Of a DNA stretch of 64,000 bases, positions 44,436 to 60,400 are shown in pieces. How positions within the stretch are numbered: position 1 is the stretch's first letter; every line of letters begins with the position of its first letter. Source of the DNA: a bacterium (GTDB lineage Bacteria > JAAXHH01); NCBI GenBank assembly GCA_963693015.1, contig OY843748.1:3651059-3715058 (forward strand). The letters are read 5' to 3'. The position numbers and the translations under genes were made by a program. The notes beneath the pieces are model-generated. The model was not told the DNA's origin. It did not search any database and saw only the letters and a list, made by a program, of their open reading frames with translations.

Positions 44436-45716
44436 ATGATACGGCCGGGCGCTGAATCGTTGCGGAAGATCGCGGTCATCGGACAGGGAACCGCGGGCTC
44501 CCTGGCGGCCGCCAGTGTAACGCGTCTTCTCTCCGACGACGACCACGAACTGCATCACATCTACGACTCGCGCATTCCGGTCATCGGCGTGGGCGAAGGC
44601 AGTTGGCCGAGTCTGGTACAGGAACTGCACCAGCTGACGAATCTGCCCCACGCAACCGTCCAGCGGCGCTTGAACGGAACCCGCAAGTACGGCGTCGCAT
44701 TCGAGGGATGGGGGTGCCGCAGCCGGGATTTCACCCACTACTTCACGCCGCAACAGGTATCCTATGCCTACCATTTGTCCGCCGACGTGCTGGCGGAGCT
44801 GTTGCGCGAAAGCACGCGCGCGCGCCACGTCGACGCGAACGTGCGCGACATCAAAACCCTGGAGGACGGCGCGCAAGTCGAGTTCGACGGCCGGGCGCCG
44901 GAACGCTACGACCTGGTCTTCGATGCGCGCGGATTCCCGAAAGAACTCCATCCCGACCGGCACATCGACATTTCCTTCATTCCCACCAATACGGCCGTCA
45001 TCCGGCGCTGCCCGGCCGTCATCGCGGAAGAGCGGGACGGGCCGGTCGTGAAGCATACCTACACCCGTGCCGTTGCACGTCCCCACGGCTGGATATTCGT
45101 CATTCCGCTGACGGTGCACACCTCCTACGGGTACATCTTCAACCGCGATATATCCAGCCTCGAAGAAGTCGAATCGGACTTCGACGCCTTCCTTGAAGCC
45201 GATGGCGTGCCGGAATTCGAGCAGCGCGCCGTCATTCCGTTTCCCAACTTCATCCATCGCCGGATCTACGATGGCGCCGTGGCCCGCGTTGGCAACGCGG
45301 CGGCCTTCATGGAGCCCCTGGAGGCCACGGCGATCGTATCTGCCCAGCTGCAAATCGGGATGGTGTTGCAGACGCGTCTGAACCGGCCGGCAGAGCATCT
45401 CGCGCCCGACGCGCCGGTGGTCAACCGGTTTCTCGTCGACAACATGCTCTGCTACGGCCTGTTCGTCGGCTGGCACTATTGCCGTGGCTCCAGGTACGAC
45501 ACCACGTTCTGGCGTCACGCCCGAAACGACGTGTGGCCCCGTCACCGCGACGCGGCAGCGCCCGAGGCGGTGGATTGCGCCGCACTCGGCAAATTCGATG
45601 GGATGTTCGAGCTACTGAATCAACCGGTCATCGACAAATCGGATTGGGACCGGATGTGCGCGGTACCGCTTACCAGCTACGCCCAGGTGTCCCAGGGGCT
45701 GGGCTGCCAAAAGTGA
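44436..45716 (+). CDS. flavin-dependent halogenase (tryptophan-halogenase family, PF04820-like)
   Basis: N-terminal KIAVIGQGTAGSLAA (GxGxxG) and the GWIFVIPL motif (the WxWxIP signature of FADH2-dependent halogenases). Size is about 426 aa. Confidence 0.8.
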   Translation: MIRPGAESLRKIAVIGQGTAGSLAAASVTRLLSDDDHELHHIYDSRIPVIGVGEGSWPSLVQELHQLTNLPHATVQRRLNGTRKYGVAFEGWGCRSRDFTHYFTPQQVSYAYHLSADVLAELLRESTRARHVDANVRDIKTLEDGAQVEFDGRAPERYDLVFDARGFPKELHPDRHIDISFIPTNTAVIRRCPAVIAEERDGPVVKHTYTRAVARPHGWIFVIPLTVHTSYGYIFNRDISSLEEVESDFDAFLEADGVPEFEQRAVIPFPNFIHRRIYDGAVARVGNAAAFMEPLEATAIVSAQLQIGMVLQTRLNRPAEHLAPDAPVVNRFLVDNMLCYGLFVGWHYCRGSRYDTTFWRHARNDVWPRHRDAAAPEAVDCAALGKFDGMFELLNQPVIDKSDWDRMCAVPLTSYAQVSQGLGCQK

Positions 45717-48830: not shown

Positions 48831-51797
48831 ATGCCGGAATACACGTCCATAGCCGAACTCGCCGCCCGCTTCGGCGAGTCCGTGCCCTGCGCGGGCAACC
48901 TGCCGGTCGAACTCGTCGACCCGGAGAGCGTCTGGTTCATCGATCAGGGCGCCGTCAATCTGTTCCTGGTCGAATTCAGGGACGGGGTGGAACAGGCCGC
49001 GCCCCAGCATCTGCTGCGCCGGGAATCGGGCTGGTTGCTGCCGGGTGTCGCGCCGGACCGGGGGGACAGCGACGAAGACACCACGCTCAGCATCATCGCC
49101 AAGGGACTGCCGGGCACCCTGCTGAAACGTCTGCCGGCCGCCTTGCTGTCCCGGGTACGTCCGTCGGAACTGGCGGAACAGACCGATACCTGGCTGACCG
49201 CCATTACCGAGACGCTGGCGCGTTACGCGATTCCCCTTCCCCGGCCGGATGCGCTGGCCGAACCCGGCCTGACGCAGACCCTGGCCCCGTGTACGCTATC
49301 CGTACGGCGCGGCGTGGCATGGGTTACCGAACCGCCGTCCGGCGCAAGCCTGTACATGGGTATCGTAGACTACGCGGACAGTGCGGGAGCGAGCGGCCCC
49401 CATGGTCCGGGCGGTCCGCACGGCCCGCACGACGCGGTCGTTCCGCTGACGCGGACGAGCTGGCTCACCTTGACCGACGAGGCGACGCTGACAGGCCAAT
49501 CCACTGAAACGCTGGCGGAGCAAGGCGTGCTGCTGCCCGCCCTCGCCGCTTTTCACGCGGTTGCCTTCACCCTGGAACGCCTGAACCGCCGACTGGTCGT
49601 GGTCGACGCCGTCAATCTCGAACGCGCGCAGATCGCCAGCCGCCGCACGGCCGAGAAAACCGCCCGGCAGCGGCTCTACAATATCTATGACCGTCCGTCC
49701 GGCCGGGATGCCGGCATTGAGGACACGGCACTGACGGATGCCCTGAAGCTCGTCGGCCGCCATGAAGGCATCGATTTCAAGATTCCGGCGCCGTCGGGCC
49801 AGGCCGATGCTCGGGTCGGCCTCGTCGACGTTCTTGAAGCGTCGGGCGTGCGGGCCCGGCGCGTGCGATTCAAAGACGAGGGCAGCTGGTGGCGCGGCGA
49901 CAGCGGAGCGATGCTGGCGTTCCGCGCCGGGGACGGCCAGCCCGTGGCGCTGCTGCCGGGCATGTTCGGACGGTACCGGGAAGTCGACCCGGTCACCAAG
50001 CGGAGCGTCCGGGTTACGGCGGCCCGCCTGGACGGCGCGGGCAAACTGGCGGATGAAGCCTGGACGTTCTATCGGCCCTTGCCGCCGGGGGACGTGAAAC
50101 CGGCGGATCTGCTGAGAATCGCCCTGCACGGCGCGGCTCCGGATCACGTACGGCTGGTCATGGCCGGGCTTCCGGGCGGCCTGATCAAACTGCTGCCGGC
50201 GATCGCCCTCGGGTTCGTTGCCCATCAGGTATCGGCGGGCGGCAGCGCGGGAACGCTCTATGCCGTCGCCGTGGCGGTGGCGGCCTTCGGCCTGCTCGGC
50301 GCATTGCTGCACCTGCTTCAGAGCACGGCGATGATGCGGCTCGAAGGGCGCTCCGGCTCCCGGGTCGAAGCGGCCTTCTGGGACCGTCTCATGCGCCTTC
50401 CCTCAAGCACGCTGCACCGACATCCGGCCGGCGATCTGGCGATGACGGGCATGACGTTCCAGCATCTTCGCGACGGCCTGCAGGGCGTCGTCGCCAACGG
50501 CTTTCTGTCGATCATCTTCCTCCTTCCGGTTTTTGGCGTCATCTTCTTCTACGATGCCGCCCTCGGTGTCATCACCCTCGCCTTCAGCCTGGTTTCGCTG
50601 CTGGTCACCGTCGTACTGGGGTTGCGCCAGATTTCGCCTTACGGGTGGATGATTACCGCGTCGCGTCGCGTGGCCGGCCGGCTGTTCCAGATCGTGGGCG
50701 GCATCTCCAAGCTGCGCATGGATAACGCGGAAGGGTCGGCTTACGCCATCTGGGCGAAGCACTATCGCGAGCAGAAGCGCGCGGAGATCGAACTCGGGGC
50801 GCTGGAAGGCCATTCGCGGGCCCTTGGCGCCGCCCTTCCCTTTCTTGCCGGCGGGGTGCTGCTTTACGCGGTGGCATCGGGGGGAGACCGGAACGTTCCG
50901 GTCGGCGATTTTCTCGTCGTCTACATCGTCTTCATCGTCTTCCAGTCCGCCATCGCCCGGCTCGGCGAGTCCTTCGGCGCCATTGCCGCGATGCTGCCGT
51001 CCTTCCAACAGATGCGCCCGATGCTCTCGGCGGTTCCTGAAACCGGGACCGAGGGCGAGCCGGTCGAATATCTGGGCGGCGACATATTGTTCGACCGCGT
51101 TTCCTTCCGCTACGATCCCGATGGTCCGTTGATACTCGACGACGTCACAATTCGCGCCCATCCCGGCGAATTCGTCGCCATTGCCGGTGAATCCGGCGCC
51201 GGCAAGAGCACCCTGTTCCGGCTCGCCCTCGGTATCGACTGGCCGACCGCCGGCGCGGTGTATTACGACGGACGCGACCTGCGGCACCTGAATCTGAAGC
51301 AGGTGCGCCGCAAGATCGGCGCGGTGCCGCAATCCATCGGCCTTCATCCTCAGGATCTGTGGGACAATCTGGTCAGCCACCACGATGCCGTGACGACCGA
51401 GGAAGTCTGGGCGGCGGCCCGGACCGCCGAAGTCGAAGCCCAGATCAAGGACATGCCCATGGGCATGATGACCATGGTGGGCGCCAGCGGGTCCGTCCTG
51501 TCGGGCGGCGAGAGCCAGCGCATCGCAATCGCCCGCTCGGTGATCGGCAACCCGCGAATCATGCTGTTCGACGAGGCGACGAACTGGCTGGACAACGAAA
51601 ACCAGTCCAGGGTCATGGGGAACATCGCCGGCCTGACTTCCACCCGCCTCGTCATCGCCCACCGCCTGTCCACGCTGGAACAGGCCGACCGCATCTACGT
51701 GCTGCAGGCCGGGCGAGTCGTGCAAAGCGGTTCCTTTACGGAACTTATGGAGGCCGACGGGGTATTCAAAGAGCTGATCAGAAGGCAGATCGCCTGA
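48831..51797 (+). CDS. NHLM-type bacteriocin ABC exporter, ATP-binding/permease protein with long N-terminal domain
   Basis: About 480-aa N-terminal non-transporter region, then 6 TM, Walker A GESGAGKST and signature LSGGESQRIAIARS. Its pairing with a C39-ABC and an HlyD matches the TIGR03794/03796/03797 trio architecture. Confidence 0.7.
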   Translation: MPEYTSIAELAARFGESVPCAGNLPVELVDPESVWFIDQGAVNLFLVEFRDGVEQAAPQHLLRRESGWLLPGVAPDRGDSDEDTTLSIIAKGLPGTLLKRLPAALLSRVRPSELAEQTDTWLTAITETLARYAIPLPRPDALAEPGLTQTLAPCTLSVRRGVAWVTEPPSGASLYMGIVDYADSAGASGPHGPGGPHGPHDAVVPLTRTSWLTLTDEATLTGQSTETLAEQGVLLPALAAFHAVAFTLERLNRRLVVVDAVNLERAQIASRRTAEKTARQRLYNIYDRPSGRDAGIEDTALTDALKLVGRHEGIDFKIPAPSGQADARVGLVDVLEASGVRARRVRFKDEGSWWRGDSGAMLAFRAGDGQPVALLPGMFGRYREVDPVTKRSVRVTAARLDGAGKLADEAWTFYRPLPPGDVKPADLLRIALHGAAPDHVRLVMAGLPGGLIKLLPAIALGFVAHQVSAGGSAGTLYAVAVAVAAFGLLGALLHLLQSTAMMRLEGRSGSRVEAAFWDRLMRLPSSTLHRHPAGDLAMTGMTFQHLRDGLQGVVANGFLSIIFLLPVFGVIFFYDAALGVITLAFSLVSLLVTVVLGLRQISPYGWMITASRRVAGRLFQIVGGISKLRMDNAEGSAYAIWAKHYREQKRAEIELGALEGHSRALGAALPFLAGGVLLYAVASGGDRNVPVGDFLVVYIVFIVFQSAIARLGESFGAIAAMLPSFQQMRPMLSAVPETGTEGEPVEYLGGDILFDRVSFRYDPDGPLILDDVTIRAHPGEFVAIAGESGAGKSTLFRLALGIDWPTAGAVYYDGRDLRHLNLKQVRRKIGAVPQSIGLHPQDLWDNLVSHHDAVTTEEVWAAARTAEVEAQIKDMPMGMMTMVGASGSVLSGGESQRIAIARSVIGNPRIMLFDEATNWLDNENQSRVMGNIAGLTSTRLVIAHRLSTLEQADRIYVLQAGRVVQSGSFTELMEADGVFKELIRRQIA

Positions 51798-51851: not shown

Positions 51852-53168
51852 GTGAAAACGGAGTGGAAAACGATGAAGAAGCCCTTTGACGTGACGGGTT
51901 ACCTGCAGTCGCGTGCCGACGACGACCACGACTTCCGGGAACGTCTTCTCGCCAGGCCCAGGGAAACCATCGAAGAGGAATTCGGCGTGACGATGGCCAG
52001 AGACCATGAGATTCACGTCCACGAAGAATCCTATGCTTCGACGCACGTTGTCCTGCCGCCGCGTAGCAAATACACCAAGGCGGAACAGGAAGAAGCGAGA
52101 ACCGGCGCGGCCTCGCTCGAGTTCCTTCGCAAGACGATGTCCGATCCCGCGCCGCCCCTGCGTCCGCCCGCGGGTGAAGGGGAAAGCGTTTCCGGATTCT
52201 CCGGTACCCCCGAGGCGCTTGCAGACGCGGCCAGAGAGCGCATCCGCCGCGGCCTCGTCTTCCTGGAATCCGCCATAGACGAAAGGGGCGCCTGGCACTG
52301 TATCCGATTCAACGTGGGCGACCCGAATATCCCGCGGCATTTCGAAAGACCCGCCTTCATATCGGCTTACTGCGTCCTTGCCCTGGAGTATTGCCGGGAG
52401 GCGCGGGCCCGGTCCATCTGCGCCGCGGCCAGGGCGTATCTTGCCGACACCATCGAATACCCCGGATTCTGGCGCTATTACCGCCATCTGCCCCAGGATC
52501 TCGACAGCACCACGCTTTCTTCGCTTGTGATTGGAACGCACCCCTGGATCCTGCTGGAGCGAAACGTTCCGCGGATACTGGCGAATCGCGACGGGGAAGG
52601 CCGTTTCATGACCTGGGTGCTGACGGAAGACGAACCCGACGTCGTGTCGCGCTTTCGCATCGAAGCCGACCCCGTCGTCAATGCGAACGTCATCGCCTAT
52701 CTCGGCGACCGCCCGGAAACCAGGGAAGCGCAGCGATGGCTGGAAGCGCTGGTAGCCGAAGGCGATCTCGCGGGGTCGTCCAAATGGTATCCCGACGAGG
52801 TGGCCATCTACTATGCGATCGCCCGCGCCATGGGTCGCGCCGAGCCCGCGCTGAGTGGCCTGCGCCCGGTACTCGCGGACCGTGTCCTCGGCTTGCAGGA
52901 CGACAGTGGAGATTTCGGCAACGTCCTTCAGACCGCCCAGGCCGTGTCGGTGCTCCACGAAGTCGGACGCCTTGACCGCATCGACGCGAAACGCCAGGCG
53001 GAAAGACTCTTATGTTCCCAGCGCGAGGACGGCAGCTGGCCGGAACTCCTCGCCTTTGGAGACCAATCGTTGAAGTGGGGCGCAGTAGGACAGATCGGAC
53101 ACGGATCCGAAGCCGTGACCTCTGCGTTCTGTATCGAAGCGCTCGAGCGCCTCGTCACGTACCTGTGA
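51852..53168 (+). CDS. NHLP-type leader domain fused to prenyltransferase/terpene-cyclase-like alpha/alpha-toroid domain
   Basis: Residues 20-70 (DHDFRERLLARPRETIEEEFGVTMARDHEIHVHEESYASTHVVLPP) align position-by-position with the precursor at 59393-59644 and with the NHLP consensus. The C-terminal 350 aa carry QxxDGSW-like repeats (QREDGSWPE, LQDDSGDFGN, NRDGEGRF). Confidence 0.6.
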   Translation: MKTEWKTMKKPFDVTGYLQSRADDDHDFRERLLARPRETIEEEFGVTMARDHEIHVHEESYASTHVVLPPRSKYTKAEQEEARTGAASLEFLRKTMSDPAPPLRPPAGEGESVSGFSGTPEALADAARERIRRGLVFLESAIDERGAWHCIRFNVGDPNIPRHFERPAFISAYCVLALEYCREARARSICAAARAYLADTIEYPGFWRYYRHLPQDLDSTTLSSLVIGTHPWILLERNVPRILANRDGEGRFMTWVLTEDEPDVVSRFRIEADPVVNANVIAYLGDRPETREAQRWLEALVAEGDLAGSSKWYPDEVAIYYAIARAMGRAEPALSGLRPVLADRVLGLQDDSGDFGNVLQTAQAVSVLHEVGRLDRIDAKRQAERLLCSQREDGSWPELLAFGDQSLKWGAVGQIGHGSEAVTSAFCIEALERLVTYL

Positions 53169-53253: not shown

Positions 53254-55653
53254 ATGTCACAGCACAGTTCTGCGGTAATCACCGGCGCCGATCCGGGCAA
53301 CGCCGACGCCACGCGGCAGATCGAACCGTCCATGCTGACGGCCCTCCCCCATTATCTGCCGCTCGGCGTCTTTCCCTTGATCATCCTCGCCGCGCTGAAT
53401 GGCGGCTGGTGGTTGCTGCCGCCCATCGTCTTCATGAGCCTTTCCTGGTCCTTCGACCGGGTATTCGGCCGCGACGGACGCAACATGGATCCGTGGAGCA
53501 CGCCGAAACACCGGCTGATCTGGCACAATCTCCCGGTCTGGACTTGGGCGTTCCTGTGGCCGCCGACGCTCATTTTCGGCGTCTGGCAGATCCTGGTGGC
53601 GGGTCAGTTCGCTCTGTGGGAAAATGCGCTGCTGGCGATCGTACTGACGATGGAAGCCCAGGCCGTATTCGTCGTCGGCCACGAACTGATCCACCGGCGC
53701 ACGTCCTGGGAACGCCGGATCGGCGAATTCCTGCTTTCCTCCTGTTCCTATCCGCAGTATGCCACGGAACACGTGTATATCCATCACGCGCTGGTCGGCA
53801 CGCCCCACGACGTGGGGTCCGCGCCAAAGGGCGAGAGTTTCTGGAAATACATGCCCAAGGAAATCATCAGCAACCTCGTCAATTCCTGGGAAGTCGCAAA
53901 AGATCGCCTTGGGCGCCGCCGCCTGACCATGTGGCATTACAGCAATCCCTTCTGGCGCTACGGCATCGGGGTCGCCTTCTGGTACGGTCTGGTTTTCTGG
54001 ATGGGCGGCATATGGGCCGTTCCGGTCTTTGCCTTCCTCGGCCTTTCCTGCGTCTTTTCCATGAAGATCAGCAATTACTTCCAGCACTACGGCCTGCGGC
54101 GGGTCCGCCTCGAAAACGGCCGCTGGGAGAAGATCATGCCACGGCATTCCTGGAGCGCGGACTGGAAGTTCAGCAACTGGATGCTGTTCAACGCCCAGCG
54201 CCACGCGGATCATCACGCCGTGGCGTCCCGCCAGTATCCCCTGCTCCAGGTCGGCAGCCACGACGAATCGCCGGAACTGCCGGGCACCTACGCCGATATG
54301 ATGAACATCGTCCTGCGGCCCAAATGCTGGTTCGAGAAGATGGACCCGCTGGTAGACCAGTGGCGGAAGCACTTCTACCCGGATATCGAGGACTGGAGTC
54401 CCTACGACAGCCCGCTTGCCGCCGCGCGGCCCGACGCCTTCGACGCGATCGTCGAGATCTTCGGCGCCGCCCCGCGGCTCGCGAAACGGATCGAGCAGAA
54501 CCCGGAACTGCTGGACAACCTGCAGGACCAGGAATTCCTCGATCTCGACCTGCCGAAGGGATTCGGGGAGGATGAAGAGTTCGAAGCGATCGCGCGGCGC
54601 GGACTTGCGAGAGTGTACTGGACGTACGAAATGGGCGTTCGGGAAATGAAGGACCTGATCGTCGAGCTGCCCGTGGTCGATGCCGGGGAAACCGCTGAGA
54701 TCGTGCGGAACTGGTCGAACGACAGGGCGTTCCAGATCGGCATGCACGTGGTGCGGGGCAACCTGTTGCCGGCGGAAGCGGGGACCGCGCTGTCGAATCT
54801 GGCCGAAGCGTCGATTTCGACCGTGCTTGCCTCCGTGGTTGCGGATTTTACCGAGCGGTACGGATCGCAGAGCGTGGGTGACGTCGCCGCGGTCTTCCTG
54901 GGCGACCTGGCCAGCCGCGAGGCATATCCCGGCATTGCGATGGATATGATGTTTGTCCATGACGGCCGGGAGTCCGGCGAGAACGAACGCATGTGCCGGA
55001 GTTTCCGAAAGGCCCTGGCCGACCTGGCGCAGGACAACCTGTTGTTCGCCCCGATCAGCCCCGATCCGGATTCCATTCCCTCGATGCAGCTTTCGGAACT
55101 GGCCGAGGGTGCTGGTGGTTCGACTTCCGGTGAAGTCCCCGTCCTCACCAGGGCGCGGTGCGTGTTCGAGCCTGACGGTTCCGACATGGGCGGCCGCTTC
55201 GACGAGGCGCGCCGTGAAATCCTGGCCGGGAGCGGCGCGAATGAGTCCCTTGTCGCCTGGTCGAGCGAGCAGCCGGAGGACCGCGCCGAGACGAGCGTGT
55301 CCACCTACGCCCGGGTGCGCGGCGGACTGGACGACGTGGAGCGGACCGCGCGATACCTTCAGCTGGTCCATGGCGGAACCCGCCTCGAAGAACCGGCGCC
55401 GACCGCCGCCGCGGTGTTCGAAGCCGCCGGCGACGAGCCGCTGGCGCAGGCGGCGAAACTGTGGCGGGACCTCCAGGGCGCCATGCGCCTGGTCGGCGAG
55501 GACGGATTTGAACTGGAGGAGGCGGGGCCGAAGGTCAGATCGCTTGTCGCGAAGGCCTGCGGGCAGGACGATTTCGATGGGTTGACGGCGGAGGTCGCCG
55601 AAACCGCGTCCCGCGCGGCCGCCCGGATCGAAGCCCTTGTTGCACGCCCATGA
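53254..55653 (+). CDS. AlkB-type integral-membrane di-iron hydroxylase fused to GlnE-like nucleotidyltransferase/helical domain
   Basis: N-terminal 400 aa: HELIHRR, EHVYIHHALVGTPHD, NYFQHYGL and NAQRHADHHAVASRQY, which match AlkB HELGHK / EHNRGHH / NYIEHYGL / LQRHSDHHA. C-terminal 400 aa: NPELLDNLQD ... VAAVFLGDLASREAYPGIAMDMMFVHDG resembles the GlnE adenylyltransferase core (GKLGGRELxxxSDLDLIF), with the second Asp replaced. RBS AAGGAGG upstream. Confidence 0.7.
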   Translation: MSQHSSAVITGADPGNADATRQIEPSMLTALPHYLPLGVFPLIILAALNGGWWLLPPIVFMSLSWSFDRVFGRDGRNMDPWSTPKHRLIWHNLPVWTWAFLWPPTLIFGVWQILVAGQFALWENALLAIVLTMEAQAVFVVGHELIHRRTSWERRIGEFLLSSCSYPQYATEHVYIHHALVGTPHDVGSAPKGESFWKYMPKEIISNLVNSWEVAKDRLGRRRLTMWHYSNPFWRYGIGVAFWYGLVFWMGGIWAVPVFAFLGLSCVFSMKISNYFQHYGLRRVRLENGRWEKIMPRHSWSADWKFSNWMLFNAQRHADHHAVASRQYPLLQVGSHDESPELPGTYADMMNIVLRPKCWFEKMDPLVDQWRKHFYPDIEDWSPYDSPLAAARPDAFDAIVEIFGAAPRLAKRIEQNPELLDNLQDQEFLDLDLPKGFGEDEEFEAIARRGLARVYWTYEMGVREMKDLIVELPVVDAGETAEIVRNWSNDRAFQIGMHVVRGNLLPAEAGTALSNLAEASISTVLASVVADFTERYGSQSVGDVAAVFLGDLASREAYPGIAMDMMFVHDGRESGENERMCRSFRKALADLAQDNLLFAPISPDPDSIPSMQLSELAEGAGGSTSGEVPVLTRARCVFEPDGSDMGGRFDEARREILAGSGANESLVAWSSEQPEDRAETSVSTYARVRGGLDDVERTARYLQLVHGGTRLEEPAPTAAAVFEAAGDEPLAQAAKLWRDLQGAMRLVGEDGFELEEAGPKVRSLVAKACGQDDFDGLTAEVAETASRAAARIEALVARP

Positions 55654-58139
55654 AGGTACCTGCCGGGCAGACGCCGAATCCCCGGATGCCGGGGCAGACG
55701 AAGACGGATTCTCCACGGGGGATATTAACTAGAACGACGCCTGCGGACCGCGGCAGCGTCGAGCTTCCCGCCCTCGCTCCGCACCTGGTCTGCCACGTCA
55801 TCGGCGAGCAGCAGACGCTCCTGGTTTCCGAGTCCTTCGATACGTTGCTGCACGGCGGCCTGTATTGCGACCTGCTTCCGCTTCTCGACGGCCGGCGTCC
55901 ACTGGCCGGGATCGTAGCCGGTCTGGAGGGCCGCCATACGGCCGCCCGTGTCGAAGCGGCCGTTGCTTCGCTCGCCGACAGGGGCTACGTCGTCTCCGCC
56001 GACTACGGCATGGACCGATCCCGGGCGGCCTACTGGTCGTCCCTCGGCGCGTCGCCCCGATGGGCCGAACAACGGCTGTCGGAATCGTCCGTCGCGGTCG
56101 AAGGCGACGACGGCCGGCTGGCATGTCACCTGGAAGCACGCGGCGCCGGTGTGGCGGCAGACGAGCCCGACTCGAGCGGCGCCGGTATGAAGGCAGACGA
56201 GCCCGACTCCAGCGGTGCGGGTGTGGCGGCAGACGAGCCCGACTCCAGCGGCACCGGTATGAAGGCAGATGAGCCCCGGCTCACGGTAATCGTCTGCGAC
56301 GATTATCTCGAACCACGATTCGCAGCGGTGAATCGGCGCCGTCTCGAGAAGAAAGCGCCGTGGACGCTGGTGCGGCCCCGCGGCATGGAGCCGCTGTTTG
56401 GCCCCGTCTTCCGCGCGGACGCAGACGGGCCCTGCTGGGACTGCCTGGCTACCCGGCTGCGCAGCCATAAGGAGGTGCACGATTTCCTGCGCCACGTTGC
56501 CGGCGAGGATGCCGCATTCAAGCCCTTCGCCGCCGAACCCGCGGTGCTGGAAGCGGTCTACGGCCTGATCGCGGCGGAGATCGTCAAATGGCTGGTGCTG
56601 GATGGGGCGGCCCCGATCCACGATCAGGCGATCTCGATGAATGTGGGCGAATTCGCCGTCTCGAAGCATCCGGTCATGCGCCGGCCGCAATGCCCGGCCT
56701 GCGGCGATGAAGCCTTGCATCGTCCGGATCGGCCGCCGGCGCCCCTGCGCCTGAATCCGAGTCCCAAGCCCCATCGCAACAGCGGCGGCGCGCGGGCCGT
56801 GGCGCCGGAAGCCACTCTGGCGAAATACCGCCACCTGGTGAGCCCGGTCAGCGGCGTCGTAACCTGGCTGAAGCGCACGACCAGTGAGCGCGACGCCTGG
56901 CTCCACGTCCACTGGGCCGGAAGCAATCCGGCCATGCGAAGCCGGAGCCTGAGTTCGCTCAGACGCAGCCTCCGCAGCAAGAGCGCCGGCAAGGGCAGCA
57001 CGGGGGAACAGTCCGAGGTCAGCGCCCTCTGCGAGGCGATCGAGCGTTATTCGGGCGCCCGTTGCGGAGACGAAATCCGCATCCGCCGGCGATTCGTCGA
57101 TTTCGCCGAAGAAGACGAGGCCATCCATCCCAACGACGTGCAGCTGTTCAGCGACCATCAGCTGGACAACGCGGAAAGCATCAACGCGGAAGGCCACCCC
57201 TACAACGTCGTCCCGCCGCGCCTCGATCCCGAAGCCGAGCTCGACTGGACCCCCGCGTGGTCGTTCACGCAGGGCCGGCACCGGTATCTGCCGACCTCGA
57301 TGCTCTACGGCACGTCGGCCGAACAGCGCGGAAGTACCGATCTGATCGCCGATTCCAACGGTTGCGCCGCGGGCAACACCCTGGAAGAGGCCATCCTGCA
57401 GGGGTTCTACGAACTGGTCGAGCGCGATGCCTTCGCCATCTGGTGGTACAACGGACTGCGCGTACCCGGAGTCGATCTTGCCAGCTTCGGCGACGAATTC
57501 CTGGCATCTGCCGAGGATTACTACGGCCGCCATGAGCGGGAAGTGTGGATGCTCGACGTGACTTCCGATCTGGGCATTCCGTCCTTCGTCGCCCTCTCGC
57601 GCAGGCCGGACGGGGATACCGAGGATATCATATACGGCGCCGGCGCCCACGCCGACCCGCGCCTGGCGGCCCTGCGCGCGGTCTGTGAGCTGAACCAGTG
57701 CCTTACCTGGTTGCCGCGTCCCGGGGGGAGCGACGGCCCGCCTGGCCGGCCTGACCGGTCTGGCCGACCCATGATCGACGATCCATTTGCCCTTCGCTGG
57801 TGGCAGACGGCTCGAATCGCCGACTGCTCCTGGCTGGTGCCGGAACCGGAGGCGCCGCTCAGGCAAGGCGCCCGGTATCCGGCGATCGAAACCGAGGACA
57901 CGCGCGACGACGTGGAACGATTCAGGGCACTGGTCGAGGCCCGGGGCATGGAGTTCCTGGTGCTGGACCAGACCCGGCCGGATATCGGCATGCCGGTCGT
58001 GCGGGTCATCGTGCCGGGCATGCGCCATTTCTGGGCGCGGTTCGCCCCCGGGCGCCTGTACGACGTGCCCGTCGCCATGGGGCGCCGCGATCGCCCGCTG
58101 GCCGAAGGCGATCTGAATCCCGCACCGGTAATCGCGTAA
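55650..58139 (+). CDS. fused RRE/E1-like docking domain + YcaO cyclodehydratase (thiazole/oxazole-forming, PatD/TruD/SagCD-type)
   Basis: E1-like PLFGPVFRADADGPCWDCLATRLRSH ... CPACG (tetrathiolate Zn site). YcaO: KYRHLVSPVSGVV ... SALCEAIERYSG ... SNGCAAGNTLEEAILQGFYELVERDA, with a Pro-rich C-terminus. The start overlaps the upstream stop (ATGA). Confidence 0.85.
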   Translation: MKVPAGQTPNPRMPGQTKTDSPRGILTRTTPADRGSVELPALAPHLVCHVIGEQQTLLVSESFDTLLHGGLYCDLLPLLDGRRPLAGIVAGLEGRHTAARVEAAVASLADRGYVVSADYGMDRSRAAYWSSLGASPRWAEQRLSESSVAVEGDDGRLACHLEARGAGVAADEPDSSGAGMKADEPDSSGAGVAADEPDSSGTGMKADEPRLTVIVCDDYLEPRFAAVNRRRLEKKAPWTLVRPRGMEPLFGPVFRADADGPCWDCLATRLRSHKEVHDFLRHVAGEDAAFKPFAAEPAVLEAVYGLIAAEIVKWLVLDGAAPIHDQAISMNVGEFAVSKHPVMRRPQCPACGDEALHRPDRPPAPLRLNPSPKPHRNSGGARAVAPEATLAKYRHLVSPVSGVVTWLKRTTSERDAWLHVHWAGSNPAMRSRSLSSLRRSLRSKSAGKGSTGEQSEVSALCEAIERYSGARCGDEIRIRRRFVDFAEEDEAIHPNDVQLFSDHQLDNAESINAEGHPYNVVPPRLDPEAELDWTPAWSFTQGRHRYLPTSMLYGTSAEQRGSTDLIADSNGCAAGNTLEEAILQGFYELVERDAFAIWWYNGLRVPGVDLASFGDEFLASAEDYYGRHEREVWMLDVTSDLGIPSFVALSRRPDGDTEDIIYGAGAHADPRLAALRAVCELNQCLTWLPRPGGSDGPPGRPDRSGRPMIDDPFALRWWQTARIADCSWLVPEPEAPLRQGARYPAIETEDTRDDVERFRALVEARGMEFLVLDQTRPDIGMPVVRVIVPGMRHFWARFAPGRLYDVPVAMGRRDRPLAEGDLNPAPVIA
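56142..56276. repeat. 36-bp tandem repeat x3.75 encoding acidic GAG(V/M)(A/K)ADEPDSS linker between RRE and E1-like domains
   Basis: Seen directly, alternating VAA/MKA variants. Confidence 0.85.
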
Positions 58140-58148
58140 GGAGGCGGA

Positions 58149-59267
58149 ATGAATATCGACGAAGCCGTTCTGCTTACCCAGGATCGTCTCGCCGAAGAGG
58201 GCGGCACGCTGGCGGAATTGCTCGGGCGCTTCAGGAGCCGGGTTTCACCGAGCCTTATCGGGGAGCGGGAATGGACGCTCATACTGGAACGCGCAAAGCA
58301 ACTCCCCATCTCCATGGGCGCCCAGCCCTTCGGCTTTGAATTGCCGCTCCATGACAGCCGGCCCGTGGCGGATTTCGGCGTCTCGCTGGCGAGCGGGAAC
58401 CGGTCAGGCAATTTCTATGAAGCGCGGGCGCGAACGGACGAGACGGACGAGACCGCAAGTGCGGTCGGTCGGCTGTTCGCGGAAATGGAAGCCCGGGACT
58501 CGCCGCTGCGGGAGATCGTGGGACGCAAGCTGATGCTGGAGTATGACATCGGCTCGGCGCACGGGAACAAGGCGTCGCTGCCTGGGTTGTTCCTGCGGCC
58601 CAACGAACGCACCTTGTCCGGTGGCGGAGGCCTTGCGCGTGACGTCGGGATCGTGGTTGACGCCCTGGTTTCCAGCGTCGGCTGGGAAAGGATCGACGCC
58701 GAACGGAAAAACGTCGAGCGGGTCTACCTGGCGCAGCCCGACGACACGCGCATGGATTCCTTCGGCGTATTCCCGTCCCGGGAACGAACGATCCGCCTGG
58801 CGGTCATGGGCTTCAACGGACAGGAGGCCCTCTGTTCTTATCTGGAAGCCACCGACTGGCCGGGGCGTATTTCGGCTGTCGAGTCCGTGATTTCACGCTT
58901 GAAGGAACGGGCGGATATCGTGAGTACGGGTGTGAATATCGACGTGCGGGCAGACGGACTGGGGCCGACGCTCGGCCTTACGCCCATCGTCAAGCAGAGA
59001 TATACGAATGACAGCCGCTACTGGATCGACGGCCAGACCGATTGGGAGCCTATCCTCGAAGCCCTGAGGTATGAGGACTGCGTCGTACCGGAGAAGCTTG
59101 CGGCGCTCGGCGACTGGGCGTCGAAACCGACCACGCTGTTTGGCCGTACCGGCCCCTTCGTCATGTTACGCGGCATACATCACGTAAAGCTGGTCATATC
59201 CGGAAACAGACTGGAGAAGGTCAAGGCCTATCTCTACATGGTGCTTTCCGGAGCGCTCTCGATTTAA
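58149..59267 (+). CDS. hypothetical protein (372 aa), last gene of the RiPP-like operon
   Basis: Protein-like composition, 10-bp gap to the YcaO gene. No motif recognised by eye. Confidence 0.5.
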   Translation: MNIDEAVLLTQDRLAEEGGTLAELLGRFRSRVSPSLIGEREWTLILERAKQLPISMGAQPFGFELPLHDSRPVADFGVSLASGNRSGNFYEARARTDETDETASAVGRLFAEMEARDSPLREIVGRKLMLEYDIGSAHGNKASLPGLFLRPNERTLSGGGGLARDVGIVVDALVSSVGWERIDAERKNVERVYLAQPDDTRMDSFGVFPSRERTIRLAVMGFNGQEALCSYLEATDWPGRISAVESVISRLKERADIVSTGVNIDVRADGLGPTLGLTPIVKQRYTNDSRYWIDGQTDWEPILEALRYEDCVVPEKLAALGDWASKPTTLFGRTGPFVMLRGIHHVKLVISGNRLEKVKAYLYMVLSGALSI

Positions 59268-59392: not shown

Positions 59393-59644
59393 CTACCAGC
59401 AGCAGCAAAGGCCGGCAGAAACGGCTTCGAGTTGCTCCTCGGTGATATTCGGATCCGGGGGCAACGCGATGTGCACCGTCTGCATATCGCTTTCGTGGAC
59501 CTGGATCGTCATCGATTCAGGCATCGTAATGTCCAACTCCTCGCAAATGACCGACTTCGGATCTGCGATCAATTTCTGCCTGAAATCTGCGTCCAGGGCG
59601 GACTTGTCCACAATCTGCTTCAGCATTTCGTCGCCACTTCTCAT
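59393..59644 (-). CDS. NHLP (nitrile-hydratase leader peptide) family RiPP precursor; predicted core LCCCW
   Basis: MRSGDEMLKQIVDKSALDADFRQKLIADPKSVICEELDITMPESMTIQVHESDMQTVHIALPPDPNITEEQLEAVSAG-LCCCW. The leader matches the NHLP consensus (DxxFRxxLxxDPxxxxxEELxxxxPExxxIxVHExxxxxxHIxLPP ... LExVxAG). Strong RBS AGGGAGG 6 nt upstream, and ATG start. Confidence 0.8.
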   Translation of the reverse strand: MRSGDEMLKQIVDKSALDADFRQKLIADPKSVICEELDITMPESMTIQVHESDMQTVHIALPPDPNITEEQLEAVSAGLCCCW

Positions 59645-59743: not shown

Positions 59744-60400
59744 AGGGATTTAGAGTGATATGCGTATCACGGCCGGTCCTGTTGTCGACGTGGCGCGGCT
59801 TCGACAGTCGTCCCATTCACCCTGTTGAAGGGCGTTCCCGGTTCTTCTTCTTCCTCGACGCGTGGATGACCGAGGCATCCACTACCCTGCCTTTGCGCAC
59901 CGCCAGCCCCGCCTCGGACAGATAGCGCTTCGTCTGCCGGGACAACGCCTGGGCCAGCCCGTGCGCTTCCAGTAAATGGCGGAACTTGCAGATCGTCGTC
60001 TCATCGGGAACGCCGTCTACGTCCACGCCCGCGAAGCGGCGCATCAATTCCACGTCGTAGAGATTGTCCTCCATGGTCGGGTCGCTCAGGCCGTACCATT
60101 GCTGCATGAAGTAGATACGGAGCATCACCTCGGCGCCAATGGGACGCCTGCCGTTGCCGGGCTTCGGATAGTGCTCCAGGATGGGGGCAAGCAGCAGATC
60201 CCAGGGCAATACCGCGTTCATTTCTCCCAGAAAGAGTTCCTTGCGCGTTTTCTTCCCGCGTATGCTCTTCTGATCGGAGGCTATACCGAAAAACTCGTTG
60301 GGTTTCATGACTGAATACGTGACTCAGGATGGTCCGTCGCTCGGGTTGCGTTTACGTCTGCGTTTGTATCGTACGTAAATATAAAGGATTTAGTGTGATC
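59744..60400. mobile_element. IS5-family insertion-sequence remnant flanked by 17-bp imperfect direct repeats
   Basis: agggatttagagtgata (59744-59760) and aaggatttagtgtgatc (60384-60400) bracket a truncated IS5 transposase ORF. Confidence 0.5.
59817..60308 (-). pseudogene. IS5-family transposase, N-terminal 163-aa fragment (DDE domain missing)
   Basis: LPWDLLLAPILEHYPKPGNGRRPIGAEVMLRIYFMQQWYGLSDPTMEDNLYD...TTICKFRHLLEAHGLAQAL closely parallels the IS5 Tnp N-terminus. The ORF stops where the catalytic domain should begin. Confidence 0.7.

What the first reader, a model, noticed from the sequence alone, without database searches (positions are those of the whole stretch)
51852..53168. An NHLP leader-like domain fused in-frame to a 350-aa prenyltransferase/terpene-cyclase-like toroid domain
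Residues about 20-70 of this 438-aa protein match the genuine precursor's leader almost position for position. Both share DxDFRxxLxAxPxxxIxEExxxTMxxxxEIxVHEExxxxTHxxLPP. The protein then continues into a folded domain with prenyltransferase/squalene-cyclase-type QxxDGSW repeats and only scattered Cys. Possible explanations:
- a full-size protein exported or processed through the NHLM C39-ABC system via a leader
- an enzyme that uses a cis leader-like domain to dock onto the RRE of the YcaO protein, or to self-activate as leader peptides do for RiPP enzymes in trans
- a sequencing or assembly frame fusion of a second precursor gene with a downstream enzyme gene
The toroid domain resembles CaaX-type protein prenyltransferase beta-subunits. 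The core CCCW is C-terminal and Cys-rich, so S- or Trp-prenylation of the peptide is a testable guess.
Basis: partly seen in the sequence, partly recalled or inferred. Interest (0 to 1): 0.85.

Follow-up and report, generated by a model that had tools for sequence, protein, structure and literature searches.

The report
Leader-like domain fused to peptide terpene cyclase
This gene is a real, widely conserved fusion of a copy of a peptide "leader" domain to a small terpene-cyclase enzyme inside the known sponge-symbiont srp peptide gene cluster, and together with a previously unnamed prenyltransferase next door it implies that this very common sponge peptide carries a cyclised lipid (isoprenoid) group.

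Summary
ORF 51852-53168 is real; its likely start is the ATG at 51873, giving 431 aa. Its N-terminus is a true homologue of the cluster's NHLP precursor leader (BLASTP E 9e-17; HHalign 99.6%).

The fusion is not an assembly artefact. At least 139 species genomes across many phyla carry it, and 79 of 80 loci examined keep one open frame through both domains.

The cluster is the published srp (sponge-derived RiPP proteusin) cluster, with precursor core LCCCW.

The C-terminal toroid is not a CaaX-type prenyltransferase. [quoted passage not shown]
- A family profile matches drimenol synthase at E 1e-28.
- Drimenol synthase's catalytic D331/D333/Y427 align to D209/D211/Y306, conserved 80/80.

The neighbouring 372-aa "unknown" models as an ABBA prenyltransferase. 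Elsewhere that family is fused to this cyclase family, like the published RiPP maturase NctPC.

Most likely the prenyltransferase lipidates the SrpE core and this enzyme cyclises the isoprenoid.

The leader-like domain has lost the L(X)4L / double-glycine determinants. Export or cleavage, and canonical RRE docking, are therefore disfavoured. It is under purifying selection, and its exact role (probably docking or recruitment) is unresolved.

The parts
51873..53168 (+). Gene for the NHLP-like domain / class II terpene cyclase fusion. It is 431 aa from the ATG at 51873; the mechanical ORF starts at the GTG at 51852. It lies immediately downstream of the ABC2 gene.
   Evidence: GGAG 9 nt upstream of the ATG. 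(P0001, 431 aa, 100% identical). (open frame in 79/80 related genomes).
51882..52058 (+). NHLP-like structured nucleus, residues 4-62. It has three helices and a beta hairpin, as in NHLP leaders and the C-terminal part of nitrile hydratase alpha.
   Evidence: AF2 secondary structure H7-17, H19-27, H29-37, E48-53, E56-60 with pLDDT 57-89. Mean pairwise identity 60% among 25 fusions.
52059..52106 (+). Counterpart of the leader's acidic 'disordered region' and cleavage site, residues 63-78 (PRSKYTKAEQEEARTG). Gly78 aligns with the precursor's Gly-1, but the L(X)4L / double-glycine hydrophobic pattern is lost.
   Evidence: Alignments. In 80 genomes: -12 F/L/Y, -7 Arg 78/80, -4 Ala 80/80, -2 Thr 62/80, -1 Gly 80/80.
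52107..52169 (+). Fusion-specific conserved connector, residues 79-99 (AASLEFLRKTMSDPAPPLRPP). It occupies the place where a core peptide would sit and is the most conserved stretch of the protein.
   Evidence: 75% mean pairwise identity. S81, L85, T88, P92 and P94 are 80/80. AF2 gives helix 79-88, and residues 91-100 have pLDDT about 90. The segment is absent from stand-alone cyclases.
52170..52211 (+). Variable linker, residues 100-113.
   Evidence: 17% mean pairwise identity and low pLDDT.
52212..53165 (+). Monodomain class II terpene cyclase (alpha/alpha toroid), residues 114-431.
52497..52511 (+). Catalytic acid motif D209-L-D211-S-T213, of the DxD(D/T/S)T type. D211 corresponds to the proton donor D333 of drimenol synthase AsDMS, and D209 to D331.
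   Evidence: Alignment and numbering. Roles of D331/D333/Y427 from PMC12365925. D211 is invariant in 123 family members. D209, D211 and S212 are 80/80.
52788..52790 (+). Tyr306, which aligns with AsDMS Y427, the partner that activates the catalytic Asp.
   Evidence: Conserved 80/80. Tyr in 94 of 98 stand-alone relatives.
58149..59267 (+). A 372-aa protein with no Pfam or NCBIfam match, predicted to be an ABBA-fold (alpha-beta-beta-alpha barrel) prenyltransferase. It is the likely partner that installs the isoprenoid.
   Evidence: No family hit. AF2 pLDDT 90.5, pTM 0.90, five alpha-alpha-beta-beta repeats. The top 50 Foldseek PDB hits are all aromatic prenyltransferases. Homologues occur in every cyclase-containing NHLP cluster examined. 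The family is fused to the cyclase family in P0226 and P0249.
59393..59644 (-). Precursor peptide (SrpE type): an NHLP leader ending ...ITEEQLEAVSAG, followed by the core LCCCW.
   Evidence: TIGR03793 at 63.7 bits, above the cut-off. The LCCCW core is that of the srp clusters (bioRxiv 10.1101/2023.06.09.544420; PMC10858898).
55650..58139 (+). YcaO cyclodehydratase with an N-terminal winged-helix (RRE-type) domain and an E1-like domain (SrpC type).
   Evidence: PF02624 E 1.9e-92; TIGR03882; TIGR03604.
53254..55653 (+). A 799-aa membrane fatty-acid-desaturase-like domain fused to a GlnE-like domain. It is a conserved srp cluster member of unknown role.
   Evidence: Present in 44 of 49 complete loci.
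44436..45716 (+). Flavin-dependent Trp halogenase (SrpI type).
   Evidence: PF04820 E 4.8e-46. The role of SrpI is from PMC10858898.
45810..51797 (+). Export and cleavage genes: a short HlyD-N-terminal-like membrane protein (45810-46514), the C39-peptidase ABC transporter (46589-48802) and the second ABC subunit (48831-51797).
   Evidence: TIGR03794 (fragment only), TIGR03796 at 857 bits, TIGR03797 at 651 bits.

Best explanation
**What the gene is.** It belongs to the known srp (sponge-derived RiPP proteusin) gene cluster and encodes a two-part maturation enzyme.

**C-terminal domain, residues 114-431.** This is a monodomain class II (protonation-initiated) terpene cyclase. It is of the MstE / drimenol-synthase beta-domain type, with Asp211 as proton donor backed by Asp209 and Tyr306.

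**Partner enzyme.** It works with the neighbouring 372-aa ABBA-fold prenyltransferase.

**Proposed pathway.**
1. The prenyltransferase attaches an isoprenoid chain to the short SrpE core LCCCW. The chain is probably C15-C20, and the acceptor is most likely the C-terminal Trp.
2. The cyclase folds that chain into rings.
3. The YcaO enzyme makes the three thiazolines and the halogenase brominates the Trp; both steps are published.
4. The C39-ABC transporter cleaves after ...SAG and exports the product.

**N-terminal domain, residues 4-99.** This is a paralogue of the precursor's own NHLP leader. It was captured once by gene fusion and has been kept under purifying selection since.
- It has lost the L(X)4L / double-glycine features needed for cleavage, for SrpI binding and for canonical RRE binding.
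- It is therefore not a leader in the processing sense.
- Most likely it is a built-in docking module: it places the cyclase, which has no leader-recognition element of its own, in the leader-organised maturation complex or next to the five-residue core.

**Status of each step.**
- Shown: the domain identities, conservation of the catalytic residues, the reality and spread of the fusion, and the gene associations.
- Inferred: the isoprenoid substrate, the acceptor residue, the order of steps and the role of the N-domain.
For: **The fusion is real and selected.** The N-domain is conserved at 60-75% against 71% for the cyclase and 17% for the linker. The fusions are monophyletic on the cyclase tree.

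**N-domain homology.**

**Cyclase assignment.**
- Foldseek E 1e-11.
- Family profile against AsDMS E 1e-28, with D331/D333/Y427 aligned to D209/D211/Y306.
- Mutation of those AsDMS residues abolishes cyclisation (PMC12365925).
- The residues are conserved 80/80.

**Prenyltransferase partner.**
- Model with pLDDT 90.5, and every one of the top 50 PDB hits is an ABBA prenyltransferase.
- Within 9 kb of the fusion in 46 of 49 complete loci.
- The same two families sit next to NHLP precursors in four other cluster types.
- The two families are fused into one protein in P0226 and P0249. Another relative, P0192, carries a DDxxD-type N-terminal domain.

**Published precedent.**
- NctPC is an ABBA prenyltransferase fused to an MstE-like cyclase. 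It geranylgeranylates Trp of a RiPP and then cyclises the chain. ChrPC is a second such fusion (Hubrich et al., Chem 2024, as summarised in PMC13290415).
- An NHLP precursor with a C-terminal Trp that is prenylated is also known: PalX/PalQ (PMC10853753).

**Cores in cyclase-containing clusters.** Most contain Trp, often at the C-terminus.

**Loss of leader determinants.** See, set against the published requirements (PMC12455567; PMC10858898).
Against: - No biochemical data exist here, and no prenyl-diphosphate synthase gene was found in the cluster.
- A variant cluster (L010/L011) has the core LCCCS, with no Trp, yet keeps both the fusion and the prenyltransferase homologue at 41% identity. 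Trp therefore cannot be the universal acceptor.
- Stand-alone cyclases serve NHLP precursors without any leader-like domain. The domain is thus not generally required for cyclase function.
- A mirror-tree test found no specific co-evolution of the N-domain with the SrpE leader (partial r -0.12), the prenyltransferase (-0.02) or YcaO (0.12-0.15).
- The relative position of the two domains in the AF2 model could not be inspected.
- The third position of the acid motif is Ser in all fusions, against Asp in 84 of 98 stand-alone relatives. Drimenol synthase has Thr there.
- Published heterologous work on srp reported thiazolines and bromination only (as cited in PMC10858898). I could not read the original srp paper or Hubrich et al. 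2024.
Confidence: 0.6

Rival explanations
1. The leader-like domain is a functional secretion and processing signal. The whole cyclase would be recognised by the C39-peptidase ABC transporter, cleaved near Gly78 and exported, to act outside the cytoplasm.
For: - The gene immediately follows the ABC2 gene in 53 loci.
- Gly78 aligns exactly with the precursor's cleavage-site Gly and is 80/80 conserved, usually followed by Ala.
- The NHLP family is genomically tied to these transporters (PMC2887384).
Against: - The positions read by C39 domains are not conserved as hydrophobic residues: -7 is Arg in 78/80, -4 is Ala in 80/80, and -2 is Thr rather than Gly/Ala in 62/80. The true precursor has I-12, L-7, V-4 and A-2.
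- 12 of 49 complete loci have no transporter genes within 9 kb yet keep an intact fusion. The Nitrospira loci carry only a Walker-A remnant of ABC2.
- The cargo would be a 350-aa folded toroid.
- The segment right after Gly78 is the most conserved part of the protein and is confidently modelled. That fits a structural connector, not a scissile junction.
Confidence: 0.07
2. The cis leader-like domain binds the RRE of the YcaO enzyme in the same way as the substrate leader. Alternatively it occupies a leader site to switch an enzyme on, as leader peptides do in trans.
For: - NHLP-cyclase fusions were seen only in clusters with a YcaO (srp and the LCCCS variant). The four cluster types with stand-alone cyclases have no YcaO.
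- The fusion is next to YcaO in 21 loci.
- The weakly highest partial correlation is with YcaO, 0.12-0.15.
Against: - Published mutagenesis shows NHLP-to-RRE engagement needs both Leu residues of L(X)4L and a matching alpha1 helix (PMC12455567). The fusion has Arg at the second Leu position, and its alpha1 is unlike SrpE's.
- The YcaO correlation rests on a single monophyletic fusion clade, so it amounts to one evolutionary event.
- The co-evolution signal is negligible.
Confidence: 0.15
3. The N-terminal domain has no partner-binding role. It would be a captured precursor copy that now serves only as an intramolecular cap or stabiliser of the cyclase, for example covering the cavity entrance.
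For: - There was a single fusion event.
- N-domain distances track the cyclase domain best, r 0.76.
- The connector 79-99 is highly conserved and confidently modelled against the toroid.
- Stand-alone relatives work without the domain.
Against: Surface features typical of the NHLP fold remain conserved over transfers between more than 10 phyla or classes. That is more than a passive spacer would need. This does not exclude a purely structural role.
Confidence: 0.18
4. The toroid is a CaaX-like protein prenyltransferase that itself S- or Trp-prenylates the LCCCW core.
For: It has the same broad alpha/alpha-toroid superfamily fold. The core is Cys-rich and C-terminal.
Against: - There is no PF00432 match.
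- The conserved motif is the class II cyclase acid motif, aligned residue for residue with drimenol synthase.
- A separate ABBA prenyltransferase is encoded in the cluster.
- The three Cys are consumed as thiazolines (PMC10858898).
Confidence: 0.04
5. Sequencing or assembly frame fusion of a second precursor gene with a downstream enzyme gene.
For: None beyond the unusual architecture.
Against: The same continuous frame is found in 79 of 80 independent species genomes, many of them long-read chromosome assemblies, and in more than 1000 database proteins of 429-440 aa.
Confidence: 0.005

Closest known systems
srp (sponge-derived RiPP proteusin) biosynthetic gene cluster. Source: Nguyen et al., J Am Chem Soc 2021, 143:10221. 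I did not read it directly; its content is as described in PMC10858898, PMC12615548 and bioRxiv 10.1101/2023.06.09.544420.
   Same: - NHLP precursor with core LCCCW.
- YcaO cyclodehydratase (SrpC type) and Trp halogenase (SrpI type).
- Found in many phyla of sponge symbionts with very high sequence conservation.
- The window's gene order is the commonest one among 80 related genomes.
   Different: The window's cluster does not differ from srp; it is an srp cluster. What differs is the reading of two of its genes.
- In the papers I could read, only SrpE, SrpC and SrpI have assigned functions.
- The NHLP-cyclase fusion and the 372-aa prenyltransferase-like protein are not discussed there.
NctPC / ChrPC bifunctional prenyltransferase-cyclase RiPP maturases. 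Source: Hubrich et al., Chem 2024, 10:3224, as summarised in PMC13290415.
   Same: - An ABBA (or trans-IDS-like) prenyltransferase is paired with an MstE-like monodomain class II cyclase.
- The pair acts on Trp of a ribosomal peptide, including proteusin / NHLP precursors.
- Database relatives of the window's two proteins occur as a single P-C-type fusion (P0226, P0249).
   Different: - In the window the prenyltransferase and cyclase are separate genes.
- The cyclase instead carries an N-terminal NHLP leader-like domain.
- The core is only five residues and is also thiazoline-modified and brominated.
- No direct sequence comparison with NctPC was possible.
MstE (merosterolic acid synthase), 6ij1 'prenylcyclase', and the TC-beta domain of drimenol synthase AsDMS: monodomain or beta-domain class II terpene cyclases.
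   Same: - Single alpha/alpha toroid of about 320 residues.
- DxD(D/T)T acid motif and partner Tyr aligned to AsDMS D331/D333/Y427.
   Different: - 17-21% sequence identity.
- The presumed substrate is a prenylated peptide, not a prenyl diphosphate or prenylated benzoate.
- The extra N-terminal NHLP-like domain.
NHLP (nitrile hydratase-like) leader peptides, TIGR03793, e.g. SrpE, MprE7 (PDB 8TB1) and PoyA.
   Same: - Homologous over the whole leader, columns 4-78.
- Same predicted helix-helix-helix-hairpin nucleus.
   Different: - It is not a short precursor.
- No core peptide and no L(X)4L motif.
- Non-canonical residues at -2, -4 and -7.
- It continues into a folded enzyme.
- It scores below the family's curated cut-off.
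Engineered leader-enzyme fusions (leader peptide fused to LynD or to LctM). This comparison rests on my own knowledge and was not checked here.
   Same: A leader sequence is placed in cis on a RiPP tailoring enzyme.
   Different: - Those are artificial constructs that keep the enzyme-binding motif, so that the enzyme activates itself on leaderless cores.
- Here the fusion is natural and the known binding motif has been lost.

Membership tests
NHLP leader peptide family (TIGR03793) | Sequence match to the family model at or above the curated cut-off | tested here: not met
   37.6 bits against a cut-off of 50.9, E 1.4e-9. Homology itself is secure: HHalign 99.6%, E 9e-25; 8TB1 E 1e-7.
NHLP leader peptide family (TIGR03793) | Structured nucleus of three helices plus a beta hairpin | tested here: met
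   AF2 secondary structure H7-17, H19-27, H29-37, E48-53, E56-60, with moderate pLDDT of 57-89.
NHLP leader peptide family (TIGR03793) | Short precursor (about 80-100 aa) whose leader ends in a GG/GA/AG site followed by a core peptide | tested here: not met
   The protein is 431 aa. After Gly78 come a conserved connector and a 318-aa enzyme domain.
NHLP leader peptide family (TIGR03793) | L(X)4L motif with hydrophobic -12/-7/-4 positions, used by the RRE, SrpI and C39 peptidases | tested here: not met
   -7 is Arg in 78/80, -4 is Ala in 80/80, and only -12 is hydrophobic. The requirement comes from PMC12455567 and PMC10858898.
Class II terpene cyclase, monodomain / TC-beta type (MstE, AsDMS beta domain) | Alpha/alpha-barrel (toroid) fold closest to class II cyclases | tested here: met
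Class II terpene cyclase, monodomain / TC-beta type (MstE, AsDMS beta domain) | Catalytic acid motif DxD(D/T)T, with the central Asp as proton donor | tested here: met
   D209-L-D211-S-T213 aligns with AsDMS D331-L-D333-T-T. D211 is invariant in 123 family members and in 80/80 genomes.
Class II terpene cyclase, monodomain / TC-beta type (MstE, AsDMS beta domain) | Tyr that hydrogen-bonds to and activates the catalytic Asp (AsDMS Y427) | tested here: met
   Y306 aligns with Y427 and is conserved 80/80.
Class II terpene cyclase, monodomain / TC-beta type (MstE, AsDMS beta domain) | Protonation-initiated cyclisation of an isoprenoid chain | not testable with these tools
   Needs an enzyme assay. 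The activity is inferred from the associated prenyltransferase.
RiPP prenyltransferase-cyclase maturase system (NctPC type) | ABBA-fold peptide prenyltransferase present | tested here: met
   Model of the 372-aa protein: pLDDT 90.5, and the top 50 PDB hits are all ABBA prenyltransferases, with E down to 5.6e-6 and TM about 0.5. Catalytic competence was not tested.
RiPP prenyltransferase-cyclase maturase system (NctPC type) | Prenyltransferase and cyclase fused in one polypeptide (P-C) | tested here: not met
   They are separate genes in the window (58149-59267 and 51873-53168). Fused relatives exist elsewhere: P0226 and P0249.
RiPP prenyltransferase-cyclase maturase system (NctPC type) | Precursor with a Trp acceptor in the core | tested here: met
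   The core is LCCCW, and 61 of 62 related loci have LCCCW. The variant cluster has LCCCS.
Protein (CaaX-type) prenyltransferase beta subunit | PF00432 prenyltransferase repeats, with the closest fold being a prenyltransferase beta subunit | tested here: not met
Protein (CaaX-type) prenyltransferase beta subunit | Zn-binding Asp/Cys/His triad and an alpha-subunit partner | not tested
   Not examined residue by residue. No alpha-subunit-like gene was noticed in the cluster.
srp biosynthetic gene cluster | NHLP precursor with an LCCCW core, together with a YcaO cyclodehydratase and a Trp halogenase | tested here: met
.
Substrate of a C39 peptidase-containing ABC transporter (double-glycine leader) | GG/GA/AG at -2/-1 with hydrophobic residues at -4, -7 and -12 | tested here: not met
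   The site is T-G, with A at -4, R or Q at -7 and F/L/Y at -12.

The most novel reading that the evidence does not exclude
A RiPP leader has been recycled by nature into an enzyme domain. On this reading the cyclase's cis NHLP paralogue, stripped of its processing motifs, is the element that recognises the substrate-leader complex or another leader-binding maturase. It would thereby deliver a five-residue, thiazoline-rich, brominated core into a terpene-cyclase cavity.

Two things would follow:
- a natural 'leader-in-cis' recruitment mechanism;
- the ubiquitous, highly transcribed srp product of sponge symbionts would be a brominated thiazoline peptide carrying a polycyclic isoprenoid.
Probability: 0.35. 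Interest if true: 0.75.

Novelty: new variant of a known kind. Interest (0 to 1): 0.6.

Why it matters
**Why the srp cluster matters.** The srp cluster is reported as one of the most widespread and most highly transcribed secondary-metabolite loci in high-microbial-abundance sponges, yet its natural product and ecological role are described as unknown (bioRxiv 10.1101/2023.06.09.544420; PMC12426817).

**What this reading changes.** Reading two 'hypothetical' genes as a split prenyltransferase plus class II terpene cyclase predicts that the mature product is a lipidated, polycyclic-isoprenoid peptide. This changes what mass and polarity to look for in sponge extracts, and which genes must be co-expressed to make the product.

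**The fusion as a mechanistic case.** It is a natural example of a leader-peptide fold attached to a tailoring enzyme. It offers a test case for how enzymes without an RRE find NHLP-type, protein-like leaders. It may also offer a design principle for recruiting cyclases to short cores.

Tried and rejected
**Literature that could not be read.**
- The original srp paper (PMC8780398), the mpr paper (PMC9746716) and Hubrich et al. 2024 (PMC11484575) are not held.
- Whether either of the first and last already names this fusion therefore could not be checked.
- Full-text searches for NHLP with terpene cyclase or fusion found no description of it.
- Haft 2010 mentions no NHLP-enzyme fusion.

**Lookups and libraries that failed.**
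- The look-up of encoding contigs for the 100%-identical P0001 was not on record, so the window's organism was not identified. The nearest genome hit is a Latescibacterota MAG at 85%.
- The Foldseek afdb50 library was not available.

**Single-sequence Pfam, NCBIfam and PDB searches.** For the toroid these gave only marginal squalene-cyclase repeat hits. A family profile was needed.

**Mirror-tree co-evolution test.** The N-domain was tested against the SrpE leader, YcaO regions, the prenyltransferase and the desaturase/GlnE protein, controlling for the cyclase domain. All partial r values were 0.15 or below, so the test was uninformative.

**Ideas considered and rejected.**
- LanC-like cyclase: no LanC hits among the fold matches.
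- CaaX prenyltransferase: see the membership test.
- Assembly artefact: refuted.
- The fusion being itself a modified precursor: there is no Cys or Trp after Gly78, and the following segment is a conserved structural connector.

**Not done.** No multimer prediction was possible.


Full report
**1. The observation**

The ORF 51852..53168 (+) is continuous, 438 codons from a GTG. An ATG at 51873 is preceded by GGAG at a 9-nt spacing. The identical database protein P0001 is 431 aa. I therefore number from that Met; add 7 to reach the finding's numbering.

The genuine precursor lies at 59393..59644 on the minus strand: MRSGDEML...ITEEQLEAVSAG|LCCCW.

The N-terminal similarity is statistically solid:
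- BLASTP gives 23/65 identities, E 9e-17.
- TIGR03793 gives E 1.4e-9, although its 37.6 bits fall below the curated cut-off of 50.9.
- Profile-profile comparison of fusion N-domains with precursor leaders gives probability 99.6%, E 9e-25. It covers columns 4-78 of both, that is, the whole leader up to the cleavage-site Gly.
- A profile of the N-domains finds nitrile hydratase alpha subunits (E 7e-13) and the solved NHLP leader 8TB1 (E 1e-7) in the PDB.

**2. Not an artefact**

- More than 1000 proteins in the large protein database share the architecture. The best 120 are all 426-466 aa (mostly 431-440) and cover at least 97% of the query.
- A scan of one genome per GTDB species found 139 genomes encoding relatives.
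- In 79 of the best 80 loci the reading frame is open through both domains. The exception is truncated by a contig end.
- Many of these records are chromosome-level assemblies.
- The hosts are MAGs of Latescibacterota, Nitrospirales, Nitrospinota, Gemmatimonadota/Longimicrobiales, Acidobacteriota, Alpha-, Gamma- and Deltaproteobacteria and Binatia. The proteins are still 69-85% identical. That pattern indicates horizontal spread.
- On a neighbour-joining tree of the cyclase domain the 25 sampled fusions are monophyletic. This points to one fusion event.

**3. The surroundings: the srp cluster**

The neighbours on the + strand are:
- a Trp halogenase (44436-45716);
- a short HlyD-N-terminal-like membrane protein (45810-46514);
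- the NHLP-type C39-peptidase ABC transporter (46589-48802) and its partner ABC2 (48831-51797);
- the fusion gene;
- a fatty-acid-desaturase/GlnE-like protein (53254-55653);
- a YcaO cyclodehydratase with winged-helix and E1-like domains (55650-58139);
- a 372-aa protein with no family match (58149-59267).

The literature identifies an NHLP precursor with core LCCCW, plus YcaO and halogenase, as the 'srp' (sponge-derived RiPP proteusin) cluster. SrpC makes three thiazolines and SrpI brominates the C-terminal Trp (PMC10858898; bioRxiv 10.1101/2023.06.09.544420; PMC12615548).

None of the papers I could read assigns a function to the fusion protein or to the 372-aa protein. The original 2021 paper is not held.

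Among 49 related loci with complete 9-kb flanks, these genes lie within 9 kb of the fusion:

| Gene | Loci of 49 |
|---|---|
| Precursor | 49 |
| YcaO | 48 |
| 372-aa protein | 46 |
| Desaturase/GlnE | 44 |
| Transporters | 37 |
| Halogenase | 36 |

61 of 62 recovered cores are LCCCW. The window's gene order is the commonest.

**4. What the toroid is**

Single-sequence searches gave only marginal squalene-cyclase repeat hits.

The exhaustive representative search showed a large family of stand-alone proteins of about 300-340 aa. They match residues about 113-428 at 30-46% identity. Some are fused to P450, sulfotransferase, lipase and other domains.

An alignment of 25 fusions and 98 stand-alone relatives (A1) has these invariant positions: D211, G243, V269, N270, Q383, G387 and W389. 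Its consensus motif is PPDLD(D/S)T.

The AlphaFold2 model has pLDDT 87.6 and pTM 0.81, with the toroid above 90. Its structural neighbours are:

| Method | Match | Score |
|---|---|---|
| Foldseek | Drimenol synthase | E 1e-11 |
| Foldseek | RabGGTase beta | E about 1e-3, TM 0.25-0.3 |

The family profile matches drimenol synthase AsDMS over the whole domain at E 1e-28.

In that alignment AsDMS D331-L-D333-T-T pairs with D209-L-D211-S-T213, and AsDMS Y427 pairs with Y306. In AsDMS, D333 is the proton donor activated by Y427, and D331A/N, D333N and Y427F are dead (PMC12365925). D209, D211 and Y306 are conserved in 80/80 related genomes.

The domain is therefore a class II terpene cyclase of the monodomain type with its catalytic apparatus intact. 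It is not a CaaX-type prenyltransferase.

**5. The partner**

Stand-alone members of the cyclase family also lie in other NHLP-precursor clusters of sponge symbionts:
- L007: core KHGWCSPV.
- L008: core YY.
- L012 and L013: many Trp-containing cores, often with a C-terminal W.

Each of these clusters also encodes one or more proteins of 320-376 aa. In L007 and L008 these are 25-36% identical to the window's 372-aa protein. In L012 and L013 they were identified only by size and lack of a Pfam hit, not by sequence comparison.

In P0226 and P0249 that family is fused N-terminally to the cyclase family, BLAST E 1e-6 to 1e-10. Another relative, P0192, carries an N-terminal domain with a DDxxD-type motif.

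The AF2 model of the 372-aa protein has pLDDT 90.5 and pTM 0.90. It consists of five alpha-alpha-beta-beta repeats. All top 50 PDB matches are ABBA aromatic prenyltransferases: PriB, DMATS, IptA, NphB, EpzP, AmbP3, CloQ and FgaPT2.

This is the published architecture of the RiPP maturase NctPC. NctPC is an ABBA prenyltransferase with low similarity to cyanobactin enzymes, fused to an MstE-like cyclase. It geranylgeranylates a Trp and then cyclises the chain. ChrPC is the trans-IDS-type analogue (Hubrich et al. 2024, as summarised in PMC13290415). Prenylation of a C-terminal Trp on an NHLP precursor is also known: PalX/PalQ (PMC10853753).

The srp cluster therefore encodes a split prenyltransferase/cyclase pair.

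**6. The leader-like domain**

Published work divides NHLP leaders into two parts: a structured nucleus, and an acidic disordered region carrying an L(X)4L motif.
- SrpI binds only through that motif.
- The YcaO RRE needs the motif plus the alpha1 helix.
- C39 peptidases read the same hydrophobic positions.
(PMC10858898; PMC12455567; PMC12715784)

In SrpE these positions are I-12, L-7, V-4, A-2 and G-1. In 80 fusions they are F/L/Y, Arg (78/80), Ala (80/80), Thr (62/80) and Gly (80/80). The alpha1 helix is unrelated to SrpE's.

The nucleus is retained: predicted helices 7-17, 19-27 and 29-37 and hairpin 48-60.

After Gly78 comes a fusion-specific segment, AASLEFLRKTM(H/S)DPAPPxRPP.
- It is the most conserved part of the protein, with 75% mean pairwise identity. 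For comparison, the nucleus is 60%, the cyclase 71% and the following linker 17%.
- Residues 91-100 are modelled with pLDDT about 90.

The domain is therefore under purifying selection. It is no longer equipped to be cleaved, to bind SrpI, or to bind an RRE in the canonical way.

About a quarter of complete loci lack transporter genes but keep the fusion. The Nitrospira loci show a Walker-A remnant of ABC2.

Stand-alone cyclases in YcaO-less NHLP clusters do without the domain. Fusions were seen only in YcaO-containing clusters, namely srp and the LCCCS variant. Because the fusions form one clade, this counts as a single event.

A mirror-tree test gave no informative partner signal.

**7. Most likely mechanism**

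- Shown: a real, selected fusion of an NHLP-leader paralogue to an intact monodomain class II terpene cyclase; tight association with an ABBA-fold prenyltransferase, an LCCCW precursor, a YcaO and (usually) a halogenase and C39 exporter.
- Inferred: the prenyltransferase lipidates the core, most likely at the C-terminal Trp and probably with a C15-C20 chain, as in NctPC. The cyclase protonates the terminal double bond via Asp211 and closes rings. The N-domain acts as a docking or recruitment module, replacing the physical tether that P-C fusions provide.
- Caveats: the LCCCS variant cluster keeps both enzymes without a Trp. No donor-synthase gene is in the cluster. The N-domain's partner is unknown.

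**8. Comparison and novelty**

The cluster (srp) and the enzyme pairing (RiPP prenyltransferase plus MstE-like cyclase) are both published.

What appears new in the literature I could search:
- The srp cluster contains such a pair, which changes the expected product.
- The cyclase carries a degenerate copy of the substrate's own leader in cis.

I rate it a new variant of a known kind. It is of moderate-to-good interest, and the uncertainty lies mainly in the N-domain's role and in whether the two unread papers already noted it.

**9. In passing**

- Directly upstream of the cluster is a low-GC defence island with Avs2 (PADLOC E = 0) and HEC-01 A/B.
- A transposase fragment abuts the precursor gene.

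Noticed in passing
window 37836-44105 (+): A low-GC island (GC 0.50-0.56, against 0.60-0.70 for flanking windows) lies directly upstream of the srp cluster and carries anti-phage defence genes. These are a 1429-aa Avs2-type STAND NTPase (PADLOC Avs2, E = 0, 1133 bits) and a HEC-01 pair: an AAA_21/AAA_15 ATPase at 42292-43470 and a DUF4276 protein at 43437-44105.
   Followed up: partly
window 59817-60308 (-): A 163-aa DUF772 transposase N-terminal fragment sits about 170 bp from the precursor gene. This is a mobile-element scar at the cluster edge. It fits the cluster's spread across more than 10 phyla or classes at 69-85% protein identity.
   Followed up: no
window 58149-59267 (+): The 372-aa protein has no Pfam or NCBIfam family, yet it models confidently as an ABBA prenyltransferase. 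Its family of 320-400 aa proteins recurs next to NHLP precursors in sponge-symbiont MAGs and is always annotated 'hypothetical'.
   Followed up: yes
window 45810-46514 (+): The 'HlyD' gene of the export set matches only residues 6-58 of the 421-residue TIGR03794 model. It also contains tandem VQVEAPAGQGEKST-like repeats. Homologues in other loci are 183-185 aa, so this looks like a conserved short membrane protein rather than a full membrane-fusion protein.
   Followed up: partly
L010/L011 (variant cluster; fusion at 10001-11290): This is a related cluster with precursor core LCCCS instead of LCCCW. It has no halogenase, but it adds a B12-radical SAM enzyme, a methyltransferase and an FAD amine-oxidase-like protein. 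It keeps the NHLP-cyclase fusion (50% identity), the prenyltransferase homologue (41%), YcaO and the desaturase/GlnE protein.
   Followed up: partly
L001-L004, 9796-10017: In the Nitrospira srp loci the transporter genes are missing. A 73-aa ORF carrying a Walker A motif (GESGIGKSTLFRL) remains as a remnant of ABC2, and the clusters are flanked by RND efflux genes instead.
   Followed up: partly
L007, L008, L012, L013: These other NHLP clusters combine a stand-alone cyclase with one to several ABBA-like proteins and very short or Trp-rich cores: YY, KHGWCSPV, ...GHTPW, ...WNPVADW. They also carry P450s, JmjC/cupin enzymes, FAD oxidases or desaturases. They look like an uncharted set of prenylated and cyclised proteusins in sponge symbionts.
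   Followed up: partly
window 53254-55653 (+): This is a 799-aa fusion of a membrane fatty-acid-desaturase-like domain with a GlnE (adenylyltransferase)-like domain. It is conserved in 44 of 49 srp loci, and its role in the pathway is unknown.
   Followed up: no
window 34022-36142 (-) and 62366-63214 (-): Two NHL-repeat beta-propeller proteins (706 aa, teneurin-NHL type, and 282 aa) flank the region on either side. No link to the cluster was examined.
   Followed up: no
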